DNA of 64,000 bases. Source: Escherichia coli. GTDB taxonomy: Bacteria > Pseudomonadota > Gammaproteobacteria > Enterobacterales > Enterobacteriaceae. The stretch is from the NCBI RefSeq assembly GCF_003334355.1, contig NZ_QOWP01000008.1. The stretch is one strand, 5' to 3'. Made by a program: the position numbers. Positions 55,801-58,800 of the stretch are shown piece after piece (positions within the stretch are counted from its first letter, which is position 1; each line of letters begins with the position of its first letter).

Positions 55801-58800
55801 CTCAGGTCGTTAGTCACATCGCCCGCAGACAGCGGAGATGTGCCTTTAGACTCAGCTTTCATGTCCTGCATACGACGAGTTGCTGCTTCAATATCATCTT
55901 CTTCTTTCACTTTGCTGGTTTTCAGCAAAATAGCAGAGACAACGAAGGAGACAGCCATCGCCGCACACACACCCGCGATGTTAGCGAAATAAGCACCTTT
56001 TGGTGTCATCGCCAGTACAGCAAGGATAGAACCCGGAGATGCCGGAGAAACCAGACCACCGCCCAGTATAGTCAGCGTGAACACGCCAGTCATACCGCCG
56101 AGGATGACTGCGAGGATCAGACGCGGATTCATCAGCACATACGGGAAGTAGATTTCGTGGATACCCCCCAGGAAGTGGATGATTGCCGCACCGCCCGCAG
56201 ACTGTTTAGCGCTACCACGACCAAAGAACATGTACGCCAGCAGCACGCCCATACCTGGACCTGGGTTAGCTTCAATCAGGAAGAAGATTGATTTACCCAG
56301 TTCATGGGACTGCTGAATACCCAGCGGCGAGAAGATACCGTGGTTAATGGCGTTGTTGAGGAACAGGATTTTCGCCGGTTCAACAAAGATAGACGCCAGC
56401 GGCAGCATGTCATGGACAACCATGAAGTTAACGCCCGCAGCCAGCATTTTGGACAGGGCTTCAACAATCGGGCCAATGCCGAGGAATGCCAGAATAGCGA
56501 GGATCATCCCGATGATGCCTGCGGAGAAGTTATTCACCAGCATCTCAAAACCGGATTTGATCTTACCGTCTACCCAGCGGTCGAAGTGCTTAATGCACCA
56601 GCCGCCCAGCGGACCTGCAATCATAGAACCGAGGAACATCGGCATGTCTGCGCCGACGATAACGCCCATGGTGGTGATGGCACCGACTACGCCGCCACGT
56701 TCGCCGCCTACCAGCTTACCACCGGTATAACCGATCAGCAGCGGCAGGAGATAAGTGATCATCGGCCCGACCAGCTTCGCCAGCGTCTCGTTCGGTAACC
56801 ACCCTGTTGGAATAAATAACGCGGTGATGATACCCCACGCGATAAACGCGCCGATATTTGGCATCACCATGTTGCTGAGGAAACGACCAAAGCTTTGCAC
56901 TTTGATCTTAATATCGGATGACATAAAAACACCCCTTCTTATGTTTGCTGTCGCGCAGGCTGGAAGCCCGAGGTTTTTTGTTAATGTGGCGGCAGAGGTA
57001 GCCGGACCTTGTAGATACTGCGAAATCTGGCACTGAATCGGTTAACTGTCCAGTCGACGGCCTTTTGTGTGATATCAATCACATAAATATAGGGGGTAGA
57101 GAGGTAATTGACGTGACGTTCATCACAAAACGCTTGTGTAAAAAAGCAACAAGGCGGCGATTTTCGCTAAAAATGGCATTTAAATGTGAGTAGTGTCACA
57201 TTTTTGTTTTGATGGTTTGTTGAATCTTTGTGATCTGAATCACAAGATATTTTCTTACGGCGTTCACCTGATGTGATCTACAGCATGTTATGCCTTCGTC
57301 ATACAATCGTTATGTAACTAAGCAACTCATCACCTCTAAAAATTATTCTTTGGTGTTATGGCGAGAATCGCGAACCCGGATTATTGTCAAAATATCAGCC
57401 TGACTCCCTTCTGGCTGCCAGCCCAAAAACAACACTGATAAACGTGAATCCGAGGCAGATATGTTTCTAAACTATTTCGCGTTGGGAGTGCTGATCTTCG
57501 TCTTTCTGGTGATTTTTTATGGAATCATCGCGATACATGACATCCCTTATCTGATTGCCAAAAAGCGCAATCACCCCCATGCCGACGCTATTCATACGGC
57601 GGGCTGGGTGAGCCTGTTTACTCTGCATGTTATCTGGCCGTTTCTGTGGATCTGGGCGACGCTCTATCAACCGGAGCGTGGCTGGGGTATGCAGTCACAT
57701 GTTGCGTCGCAGGAGAAAGCGACTGACCCGGAAATCGCCTCACTTTCTGACCGAATTTCCCGGCTGGAGCATCAACTCGCCGCCGAGAAAAAGACTGACT
57801 ATTCCACGTTCCCGGAGATCTAATTATGGATCTATTGATTGTTTTAACTTACGTGGCGCTGGCGTGGGCGGTCTTTAAAATCTTCCGCATTCCGGTAAAT
57901 CAGTGGACGCTGGCGACGGCGGCGCTGGGAGGCGTGTTTCTGGTGAGTGGTTTGATTTTGTTGATGAACTACAACCACCCTTACACTTTTACCGCGCAAA
58001 AGGCAGTGATAGCGATCCCTATCACGCCACAGGTGACGGGAATTGTTACTGAAGTCACTGACAAGAATAATCAGCTTATTCAAAAGGGCGAGGTGCTTTT
58101 TAAGCTCGACCCGGTTCGTTACCAGGCGCGAGTTGACAGACTTCAGGCTGACCTGATGACGGCGACGCATAATATAAAGACGCTGCGTGCGCAGCTCACT
58201 GAAGCGCAGGCCAACACCACCCAGGTTTCAGCGGAGCGCGACCGTCTGTTTAAAAATTATCAACGTTACTTGAAAGGCAGCCAGGCGGCGGTGAATCCGT
58301 TCTCGGAACGTGACATCGACGATGCGCGGCAAAATTTCCTCGCGCAGGATGCGCTGGTGAAAGGCTCGGTGGCGGAGCAGGCGCAGATCCAGAGCCAGCT
58401 CGACAGTATGGTTAACGGCGAGCAATCGCAGATTGTGAGCTTAAGAGCGCAACTTACTGAAGCAAAATATAACCTTGAGCAGACTGTCATTCGCGCGCCG
58501 AGCAATGGCTACGTTACTCAGGTACTGATCCGCCCAGGTACATACGCAGCTGCCTTGCCGCTGCGTCCGGTGATGGTCTTCATCCCCGAGCAAAAACGGC
58601 AAATTGTCGCCCAATTTCGGCAAAACTCGCTGTTACGTCTGAAACCCGGCGATGATGCGGAAGTGGTGTTTAACGCGCTACCTGGGCAGGTGTTTCACGG
58701 CAAACTGACTAGTATTTTACCTGTCGTGCCAGGCGGTTCTTATCAGGCGCAGGGGGTATTGCAATCATTAACGGTCGTGCCCGGCACGGACGGTGTGCTG

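What the first reader, a model, noticed from the sequence alone, without database searches (positions are those of the whole stretch)
56925..57460. Dense array of perfect CRP half-site palindromes in the mtlA / yibI divergent region
Three perfect TGTGA-N6-TCACA sites lie within 180 bp (57068-57083, 57185-57200, 57229-57244) along with further TGTGA half-sites. The mtlA promoter is known to carry multiple CRP sites; the spacing relative to the divergent yibI start suggests yibIH is also cAMP-CRP controlled.
Basis: partly seen in the sequence, partly recalled or inferred. Interest (0 to 1): 0.25.

Follow-up and report, generated by a model that had tools for sequence, protein, structure and literature searches.

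The report
Known five-site CRP operator of mtlA
The cluster of perfect CRP palindromes is real, but it is the already mapped five-site cAMP-CRP/MtlR operator of the E. coli mannitol operon, and comparative genomics ties it to mtlA, not to the neighbouring yibIH genes.

Summary
**Observation confirmed.** Three perfect TGTGA-N6-TCACA sites lie at 57068-83, 57185-200 and 57229-44. They are the only three in the 64 kb window, against about 0.08 expected by chance.

**What it is.**
- They are CRP5, CRP3 and CRP2 of the published E. coli mtl operator.
- The centres fit the published positions -58.5, -102.5, -175.5, -219.5 and -262.5 exactly. This places the mtlA transcription start at 57017 on the minus strand.
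- The mechanism was worked out in NAR 2026 (PMC13421365). CRP activates the operon. MtlR, which has no DNA-binding domain, represses by bridging CRP dimers 43-46 bp apart.

**The yibIH inference is not supported.**
- Across about 50 species the array keeps a fixed register with the mtlA promoter.
- Its distance to yibI falls into two classes, about 221 and about 348 bp.
- The array stays beside mtlA when yibF is the neighbour instead.
- It is absent upstream of yibIH in Kluyvera, in Buttiauxella and in the yiaWV-like paralogues.
- A conserved candidate yibI promoter would put the nearest sites at about -114.5 (CRP1, weak) and -157.5 (CRP2).

No expression test of yibI in a crp mutant was found, so a minor CRP effect is not excluded.

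**Verdict:** already known, low interest.

The parts
57068..57083 (.). CRP5, perfect palindrome TGTGATATCAATCACA, centre 57075.5, which is -58.5 from the mtlA start
   Evidence: 18.1 bits. Published position in PMC13421365. Half-site columns are 1.00 conserved over 52 sequences. Essential for mtl expression.
57112..57127 (.). CRP4, CGTGACGTTCATCACA, one mismatch, centre 57119.5, which is -102.5
   Evidence: 16.3 bits. It lies 44 bp from CRP5 in all loci examined. Essential.
57185..57200 (.). CRP3, perfect palindrome TGTGAGTAGTGTCACA, centre 57192.5, which is -175.5
   Evidence: 14.7 bits. It lies 73 bp from CRP4. Mutating it causes a slight loss of mtl expression.
57229..57244 (.). CRP2, perfect palindrome TGTGATCTGAATCACA, centre 57236.5, which is -219.5
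   Evidence: 19.7 bits, the best in the window. It lies 44 bp from CRP3. Essential. An ETEC ChIP-seq peak carries this motif.
57272..57287 (.). CRP1, weak site TGTGATCTACAGCATG with 7 of 10 core bases, centre 57279.5, which is -262.5
   Evidence: 10.1 bits. It lies 43 bp from CRP2. Reported as unoccupied in the wild-type probe and dispensable for mtlD expression. The TGTGATC half is nevertheless kept at this offset in most genera.
57047..57052 (-). mtlA promoter -35 hexamer TGGACA
   Evidence: It follows from the published site positions. It is invariant and starts 23.5 bp from the CRP5 centre in 48 of 49 loci.
57024..57029 (-). mtlA promoter -10 hexamer CAGATT, after a 17-bp spacer
   Evidence: CAGATT or CAAATT in all 49 loci. 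The -35 to -10 stretch has 0.96 mean identity.
56925..57017 (-). mtlA 5' untranslated region, 93 nt, with the transcription start inferred at 57017
   Evidence: Inferred by placing CRP5 at -58.5. All five published centres then fall exactly on CRP-like 16-mers, and the -10 ends 7 nt upstream of the start.
57033..57046 (.). CTGAATCGGTTAAC, a Cra-like sequence in the -35/-10 spacer of the mtlA promoter
   Evidence: Read from the sequence. The spacer is unusually conserved. The literature says the region holds Cra and Fis sites. The match to the Cra consensus is from my own knowledge and was not tested.
55011..56924 (-). mtlA, PTS mannitol transporter IICBA
   Evidence: NCBIfam NF011663 scores 1323.8 bits against a cut-off of 589.
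53633..54781 (-). mtlD, mannitol-1-phosphate 5-dehydrogenase
   Evidence: NF002648 scores 876.6 bits against a cut-off of 719, matching residues 107-488 of the long ORF.
53046..53633 (-). mtlR, the repressor that bridges CRP dimers
   Evidence: NF008234 scores 256 bits against a cut-off of 149. Mechanism from PMC13421365.
57359..57387 (+). Candidate yibI promoter: -35 TGGCGA (57359-64), 17-bp spacer, -10 TATTGT (57382-87), predicted start near 57394
   Evidence: TGGCGN-17-TAnnnT with an invariant 17-bp spacer occurs in 35 loci, including Kluyvera loci with no CRP site. This is an inference with no transcript-start data. The simple promoter scan did not flag it because its -35 matches only 3 of 6.
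57396..57417 (+). Conserved inverted repeat CAGCC-N12-GGCTG just after the predicted yibI start
   Evidence: The stem is conserved in 12-13 of 13 sequences, the loop varies freely, and there is one compensatory change. It could be a 5' RNA hairpin or a protein site; this is unresolved.
57461..57823 (+). yibI, DUF3302 inner-membrane protein
   Evidence: It matches no NCBIfam model.
57826..58962 (+). yibH, HlyD/membrane-fusion-type adaptor protein
   Evidence: TIGR01730 scores 99.9 bits against a cut-off of 94.9.

Best explanation
The 536-bp mtlA-yibI spacer holds the known operator of the E. coli mannitol operon mtlADR.

**Layout.** A sigma-70 promoter on the minus strand (TGGACA-17-CAGATT, start at 57017) is preceded by five cAMP-CRP sites centred at -58.5, -102.5, -175.5, -219.5 and -262.5, spaced 44, 73, 44 and 43 bp. 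The three perfect palindromes are CRP5, CRP3 and CRP2.

**Mechanism (from the literature).**
- cAMP-CRP at these sites is needed to activate the promoter. CRP2, CRP4 and CRP5 are essential, CRP3 contributes and CRP1 is dispensable.
- MtlR has no DNA-binding domain. It represses by bridging two CRP dimers whose sites are 43-46 bp apart.

**Shown here.**
- The exact mapping of the published sites onto the window.
- The statistical strength of the sites.
- The array is an mtlA-linked module. Its spacing and its register with the mtlA promoter are invariant across Enterobacteriaceae, whatever gene lies on the other side.

**Inferred.** yibIH is most likely transcribed from its own promoter about 70 nt upstream of its ATG, too far from the CRP sites for conventional CRP activation.
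For: - **Sites and statistics:**
- **Published site positions, spacing rule and MtlR mechanism:** PMC13421365.
- **CRP occupancy:** in vivo by ChIP-seq in ETEC; in vitro by Genomic SELEX, 38 clones from this spacer.
- **Locus identity:** 100% identical to E. coli chromosomes and present in 5396 of 5426 complete genomes. mtlA, mtlD and mtlR are confirmed by curated models.
- **Invariant geometry:** the 44/73/44/43 spacing and a fixed distance to the mtlA ATG hold in all mtlA-linked loci. The CRP5-to-(-35) distance is 23.5 bp in 48 of 49 loci, with TGGACA-17-CAGATT invariant.
- **Footprint:** half-site columns have mean identity 0.94, N6 spacers 0.53 and inter-site DNA 0.68.
- **Array follows mtlA:** it is retained with yibF or another gene as the divergent neighbour.
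- **Array is not a yibIH feature:** it is absent upstream of yibIH in Kluyvera, where mtlADR is missing between yibL and yibI, in Buttiauxella and in the paralogues.
Against: - Nothing contradicts the identification of the array.
- The mtlA start at 57017 is derived from the published site positions. I did not read it from primary S1-mapping data.
- The independence of yibIH rests on comparative and positional arguments only. In the Escherichia/Citrobacter/Klebsiella class the distance from CRP2 to the conserved yibI block is fairly stable (mode 121.5 bp, range 114.5-130.5). Some coupling is therefore not excluded.
- CRP1 is kept as a weak site across genera even though it is reported as dispensable for mtl activation. 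That is not explained.
Confidence: 0.93

Rival explanations
1. Shared divergent control. CRP bound at the yibI-proximal sites (CRP1, CRP2), perhaps together with MtlR, also activates or represses the yibIH promoter. yibIH would then respond to cAMP and possibly to mannitol.
For: - CRP occupies this part of the spacer in vivo. The ETEC ChIP-seq peak carrying the CRP2 and CRP1 motifs was labelled yibI.
- Shimada et al. note that both promoters of a divergent pair are often CRP-regulated.
- With the predicted yibI start near 57394, CRP1 (-114.5) and CRP2 (-157.5) lie roughly on the same helical face as class I positions (the phasing is my inference).
- CRP1 is conserved although dispensable for mtl activation.
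- The distance from CRP2 to the yibI block is fairly constant within the short-spacer genera.
- yibI is induced in urine relative to LB.
Against: - The sites are 181 bp or more from the yibI ATG. Under the conserved candidate promoter they are more than 110 bp from the start, beyond the usual reach of CRP acting alone (this limit is from my general knowledge of class I promoters).
- CRP1 is weak and unoccupied in the wild-type probe.
- The array-to-yibI distance jumps by about 125 bp in Enterobacter, Lelliottia, Raoultella and Leclercia, while the register with mtlA is unchanged.
- Kluyvera keeps the yibI promoter block without any CRP site.
- Buttiauxella and the yiaWV-like operons have none either.
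- No paper in the library reports crp-dependent yibI or yibH expression.
Confidence: 0.15
2. The upstream half of the array (CRP1-CRP3) belongs mainly to yibIH, and only CRP4 and CRP5 serve mtlA.
For: CRP1-3 are closer to yibI than to mtlA. The ETEC ChIP-seq table splits the spacer into a 'yibI' peak and an 'mtlA' peak.
Against: - A chromosomal CRP2 mutation abolishes mtlD expression and growth on mannitol, and a CRP3 mutation reduces both.
- CRP2 and CRP3 keep their 44-bp spacing and their offset from the mtlA promoter in loci with no yibI at all.
- The gene labels in the ChIP-seq table only mean that a gene start lies within 300 bp.
Confidence: 0.02
3. A chance cluster of TGTGA/TCACA words in an AT-rich spacer, with no function.
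For: The spacer is AT-rich (GC 0.41 against about 0.53 in the flanks).
Against: - 0.08 perfect sites are expected per 64 kb and three are observed, with none of 100 shuffles reaching three.
- The top four matrix scores of the window all fall here.
- The half-sites are conserved across genera while their spacers vary freely.
- Binding and mutant data are published.
Confidence: 0

Closest known systems
The E. coli mtlADR operator: a class III CRP-dependent promoter with five CRP sites, repressed by MtlR bridging of CRP dimers (Ramseier and Saier 1995, as cited in Lee et al., Nucleic Acids Res 2026, PMC13421365)
   Same: It is the same locus. The sequence is identical to E. coli chromosomes. There are five sites at -58.5, -102.5, -175.5, -219.5 and -262.5 with 44/73/44/43 spacing. 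mtlA, mtlD and mtlR lie downstream.
   Different: Nothing differs. This window is simply an instance of it.
Divergent promoter pairs that share CRP sites, such as malEp/malKp
   Same: Several CRP sites lie in a spacer between divergently transcribed operons.
   Different: In the known shared cases, CRP sites sit at activating distances from both starts and both operons depend on crp. Here the array is registered only to the mtlA promoter. The candidate yibI start is at least 114 bp from the nearest (weak) site, and yibIH orthologues away from mtlA have no CRP sites.
CytR-CRP repression complexes, for example at deoP2
   Same: A repressor uses tandem DNA-bound CRP dimers as its platform, so the spacing between sites matters.
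   Different: CytR has its own DNA-binding domain and operator. According to PMC13421365, MtlR has none and reads only the 43-46 bp geometry.

Membership tests
cAMP-CRP binding site | Match to the TGTGA-N6-TCACA core, scored with a matrix built from independent sites | tested here: met
   Three perfect cores, one with one mismatch and one with three. Matrix scores are 19.7, 18.1, 16.3, 14.7 and 10.1 bits, against a median of 12.7 for the 103 ChIP-seq sites used to build it.
cAMP-CRP binding site | Half-sites under purifying selection while the central N6 is free | tested here: met
   Mean column identity is 0.94 for the half-sites of CRP2-5 and 0.53 for their N6 spacers, over 52 sequences.
cAMP-CRP binding site | Occupancy by CRP protein | not testable with these tools
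   Known from the literature only: EMSA, ETEC ChIP-seq and Genomic SELEX.
mtl operator (five-site CRP/MtlR module) | Five sites centred at -262.5, -219.5, -175.5, -102.5 and -58.5 from the mtl transcription start | tested here: met
   Placing CRP5 at -58.5 puts every other published centre exactly on a CRP-like 16-mer. It also puts a TGGACA-17-CAGATT promoter at the right distance.
mtl operator (five-site CRP/MtlR module) | Adjacent site pairs 43-46 bp apart, the geometry MtlR needs | tested here: met
   The spacings are 44 (CRP5-4), 44 (CRP3-2) and 43 (CRP2-1) in the window, and are the same in the genome and metagenome loci examined.
mtl operator (five-site CRP/MtlR module) | Directly upstream of mtlA-mtlD-mtlR | tested here: met
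   All three genes are identified above their curated cut-offs.
Divergent operon pair co-regulated through shared CRP sites (applied to yibIH) | A CRP site at a class I or class II distance from the second promoter's start | tested here: inconclusive
   No yibI transcript-start data could be obtained. With the conserved candidate promoter, the nearest sites fall at -114.5 (weak CRP1) and -157.5, outside the usual range.
Divergent operon pair co-regulated through shared CRP sites (applied to yibIH) | Site-to-promoter geometry conserved on the second side | tested here: not met
   The distance from CRP2 to the yibI ATG is about 219-227 bp in one set of genera and 323-355 bp in another. The yibI-proximal DNA is unrelated between the two sets.
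Divergent operon pair co-regulated through shared CRP sites (applied to yibIH) | CRP sites kept upstream of orthologues that are not next to the partner operon | tested here: not met
   No site with one mismatch or fewer was found in the 700 bp upstream of yibIH in Kluyvera, Buttiauxella or the yiaWV-like paralogues.
Divergent operon pair co-regulated through shared CRP sites (applied to yibIH) | Expression depends on crp or cya | not testable with these tools
   No such data were found in the searchable literature.

The most novel reading that the evidence does not exclude
The CRP/MtlR nucleoprotein array works in both directions. The conserved but weak CRP1, together with CRP2, would tune the yibIH promoter from about -114 and -157, for example through DNA bending or MtlR-stabilised CRP binding. 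That would couple a DUF3302 protein and an efflux-adaptor-like protein to cAMP and mannitol status. It would also explain why CRP1 is conserved although it is dispensable for mtl activation.
Probability: 0.12. Interest if true: 0.3.

Novelty: already known. Interest (0 to 1): 0.1.

Why it matters
As found, it matters little. It re-identifies a textbook-level control region whose mechanism was clarified in 2026.

The comparative result adds modest value. It shows that the five-site array, with its exact spacing, moves as a unit with mtlA across Enterobacteriaceae. The 'yibI' labels attached to these CRP sites in genome-wide tables reflect proximity only and should not be read as regulation.

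Two small open points remain:
- why the weak CRP1 site is conserved;
- what controls the conserved yibI promoter block. yibI has been linked to fitness in urine.

Tried and rejected
**Transcript-start data for yibI.** I tried the supplementary files of five genome-wide transcript-mapping and regulon studies. They were not held, were cut short, or did not mention the gene. Two papers were not in the library at all.

**Literature searches.** Searches for yibI, yibH, b3598/b3597, DUF3302 and yiaW together with CRP, cAMP or catabolite terms found only proximity listings and no functional test.

**Rfam.** A scan of 56850-57550 at a permissive threshold found nothing.

**The TCTACA-19-TACAAT candidate.** This is the 'constitutive promoter' candidate of Shimada 2014 (57277-82 and 57302-07, plus strand, overlapping CRP1). 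I rejected it as the main yibI promoter because TACAAT is not conserved even in another E. coli-group genome (L001).

**The short DFI-seq yibI entry.** Its 235 bp span -144 to +90 and would exclude all CRP sites. I first took it as proof of a CRP-independent promoter. I then downgraded it, because the library inserts were 500-700 bp and the coordinates may describe a partial read.

**Other checks.**
- By eye I tried sigma-54, sigma-E and sigma-32 readings of the conserved yibI block. The spacings do not fit. This was inspection only, not a tool result.
- The simple promoter scan flags no plus-strand promoter in the spacer.
- No long direct or inverted repeats occur in the spacer.
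Full report
**1. The observation**

The window encodes mtlA on the minus strand (55011-56924), and yibI (57461-57823) and yibH (57826-58962) on the plus strand. The DNA is 100% identical to several E. coli chromosomes, and 5396 of 5426 complete E. coli genomes hold most of it.

A search for TGTGA-N6-TCACA finds exactly three perfect matches in the whole 64 kb. Shuffles expect 0.08 matches, and none of 100 reached three.

I built a matrix from 103 CRP sites of the ETEC H10407 ChIP-seq study, leaving out the four sites from this spacer. The four best scores of the whole window are all in this spacer:
- 57229: 19.7 bits
- 57068: 18.1 bits
- 57112: 16.3 bits
- 57185: 14.7 bits

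A fifth site at 57272 scores 10.1 bits. Nothing between 57288 and the yibI ATG reaches 5 bits.

**2. What it is**

Lee et al. (Nucleic Acids Res 2026, PMC13421365) give five CRP sites in the E. coli mtl operator. They are centred at -262.5, -219.5, -175.5, -102.5 and -58.5 from the S1-mapped start, with centre-to-centre distances of 43, 44, 73 and 44 bp.

If the palindrome at 57068-83 is placed at -58.5, every other published centre falls exactly on a CRP-like 16-mer:

| Site | Window coordinates | Mismatches to core | Position |
|---|---|---|---|
| CRP5 | 57068-83 | 0 | -58.5 |
| CRP4 | 57112-27 | 1 | -102.5 |
| CRP3 | 57185-200 | 0 | -175.5 |
| CRP2 | 57229-44 | 0 | -219.5 |
| CRP1 | 57272-87 | 3 | -262.5 |

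The implied start is 57017 on the minus strand. It is preceded at the correct distances by TGGACA (57052-57047), a 17-bp spacer and CAGATT (57029-57024).

Downstream of mtlA lie mtlD (53633-54781) and mtlR (53046-53633). Both score above their curated cut-offs, and so does mtlA.

The finding is therefore the known mtl operator. The three perfect palindromes are CRP5, CRP3 and CRP2.

**3. How it works (from the literature)**

- CRP is required for activation. Chromosomal replacement of CRP2, CRP4 or CRP5 abolishes mtlD expression and growth on mannitol. Replacing CRP3 has a slight effect.
- Replacing CRP1 has no effect, and CRP1 is not occupied on a wild-type CRP1-3 probe.
- MtlR has no DNA-binding domain. 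It binds only when two CRP dimers sit 43-46 bp apart. The authors found that spacing only at mtl among 331 CRP-regulated transcription units.
- Dephosphorylated EII-Mtl sequesters MtlR at the membrane when mannitol is transported, which relieves repression.
- CRP binding to this spacer is also seen by ChIP-seq in ETEC, as two peaks, and by Genomic SELEX, with 38 clones.

**4. Comparative test of the yibIH idea**

I collected 80 loci encoding YibI relatives, one genome per species. I located mtlA, yibI and yibH in each.

*Loci where mtlA is the divergent neighbour.* These are Escherichia, Citrobacter, Yokenella, Klebsiella, Raoultella, Enterobacter, Lelliottia, Leclercia and Huaxiibacter.
- The five sites sit at about 150, 194, 267, 311 and 354 bp from the mtlA ATG, with spacing unchanged.
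- The distance from the CRP5 centre to the -35 hexamer is 23.5 bp in 48 of 49 loci, and TGGACA-17-CAGATT is essentially invariant.
- The distance from CRP2 to the yibI ATG is bimodal. It is 219-227 bp in Escherichia, Citrobacter and part of Klebsiella and Raoultella. It is 323-355 bp in Enterobacter, Lelliottia, Raoultella planticola and Leclercia. The yibI-proximal DNA of those two groups is unrelated.
- Column by column over 52 sequences, half-site positions of CRP2-5 average 0.94 identity. Their N6 spacers average 0.53, inter-site DNA 0.68 and the mtlA -35 to -10 stretch 0.96.

*yibIH without mtlA.*
- In Kluyvera the order is lldP, yibL, then divergently yibI and yibH. The mtlADR operon is absent from the place it occupies in E. 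coli.
- Those loci keep the roughly 110 bp just upstream of yibI that Escherichia and Citrobacter have. They carry no CRP-like site with two mismatches or fewer in the 700 bp upstream.
- The Buttiauxella loci and the yiaWV-like paralogues also have no site with one mismatch or fewer. Each group has its own, different conserved upstream element.

*mtlA without yibI.*
- A metagenome scan for a 44-bp-spaced CRP pair followed by TGGACA returned 80 loci.
- In six of them mtlA has the full array at the usual offsets but no yibI upstream.
- In four of the six the divergent neighbour is yibF, next to selA. In the other two it is something else.

The array therefore moves with mtlA and not with yibIH.

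**5. Where the yibI promoter probably is**

The block shared by Escherichia, Citrobacter, Yokenella, Klebsiella and Kluyvera contains TGGCGN, exactly 17 bp, then TAnnnT, in 35 loci. In the window these are TGGCGA at 57359-64 and TATTGT at 57382-87.

This is a plausible weak sigma-70 promoter with a start near 57394. It is followed at once by a conserved inverted repeat, CAGCC-N12-GGCTG (57396-57417). The stem of that repeat is conserved, its loop varies freely, and there is one compensatory change.

Under this model CRP1 lies at -114.5 and CRP2 at -157.5. From general knowledge of class I promoters, that is beyond the range in which CRP acts alone. This step is an inference, because I could not obtain any yibI transcript-start data.

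A promoter-trap study in UTI89 found yibI fragments induced 5.6-fold in urine. One entry spans only -144 to +90 of the yibI ATG. However, the library inserts were 500-700 bp, so that entry may be a partial read and counts for little.

**6. What is known about yibI and CRP**

PhyloScan (2007), Genomic SELEX (2011) and the ETEC ChIP-seq table (2015) all list yibI next to these sites. In each case the reason is only that it is the nearest or opposite gene. The 2026 mtl paper does not mention yibI. No paper in the library reports yibI or yibH expression in crp or cya mutants.

It has never been tested, and the comparative evidence here weakens it.

**7. Verdict**

- The feature is already known and the interest is low.

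Two residual points remain. CRP1 is a conserved weak site, with its TGTGATC half kept 43 bp from CRP2 in most genera, despite being dispensable for activation. The regulator of the conserved yibI block is also unknown. I put the chance that the array has a real effect on yibIH at about 0.12-0.15.

Noticed in passing
window 57359-57417: A conserved candidate yibI promoter (TGGCGA-17-TATTGT) followed by the inverted repeat CAGCC-N12-GGCTG. Escherichia, Citrobacter, Yokenella, Klebsiella and Kluyvera share it, and its regulator is unknown. The repeat could be a 5' mRNA hairpin or a protein-binding site.
   Followed up: partly
window 57272-57287 (CRP1): The weak CRP1 site keeps its TGTGATC half, with a degenerate other half, 43 bp from CRP2 in most genera. 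Yet the 2026 study found it unoccupied and dispensable for mtl activation. Its role is unexplained; it may matter for repression.
   Followed up: partly
L022, L024, L027, L033, L044, L046, L057, L062 (about 200 bp upstream of yibI): Enterobacter, Lelliottia, Raoultella planticola, Leclercia and Huaxiibacter have about 125 bp more between the CRP array and yibI. It is a conserved AT-rich segment (...TTCAGGATATATTTTGTCACGCTTATAAACTTGCATGGAG...) unrelated to the E. coli yibI-proximal DNA.
   Followed up: no
L029 and L031 (Kluyvera), 2600-4000: The gene order is lldP, yibL, then divergently yibI and yibH. The whole mtlADR operon and its operator are missing from the position they occupy in E. coli.
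   Followed up: partly
L093, L138, L145, L159; also L110 and L127: These metagenome contigs have mtlA with its full five-site array facing yibF (next to selA and selB) or another gene, with no yibIH.
   Followed up: partly
window 57033-57046: CTGAATCGGTTAAC sits in the spacer between the mtlA -35 and -10 hexamers and resembles a Cra (FruR) operator. The whole -35 to -10 stretch is 0.96 conserved, which is unusual for a plain spacer.
   Followed up: no
window 59000-63500: A block with GC content mostly 0.31-0.40 lies just downstream of yibH, against about 0.53 in the mtl and yibIH genes. It holds only short ORFs in the part I listed (up to 60500) and may be horizontally acquired DNA.
   Followed up: no
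window 54845-54865 and 54981-55001: Two copies of a GC-rich hairpin-type repeat (ACCCTCTCCGTGAGGAGAGGG / CCTTCTCCATGTGGAGAGGGT) lie in the mtlA-mtlD spacer. This is probably a known small intergenic repeat of E. coli.
   Followed up: no
L038 and L080: A 433-bp contig in a Myxococcus assembly and a contig labelled Chryseobacterium sp. both carry enterobacterial yibI. The second also has mtlA with the CRP array. Both are most likely contamination or mislabelling in public assemblies.
   Followed up: no
L083-L162 (E. coli-like metagenome contigs), CRP3: Among E. coli-like contigs (YibI at least 95% identical to the window's) the N6 spacer of CRP3 shows at least seven variants, while both half-sites stay invariant. 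This is a within-species footprint of selection on the half-sites only.
   Followed up: no
mtlA/yibI spacer (literature, PMC7858067): A 1-bp insertion in this spacer became fixed in a 1,200-day stationary-phase evolution experiment. If it lies between CRP sites, it would alter the spacing MtlR needs. The main text I read does not give its position.
   Followed up: no
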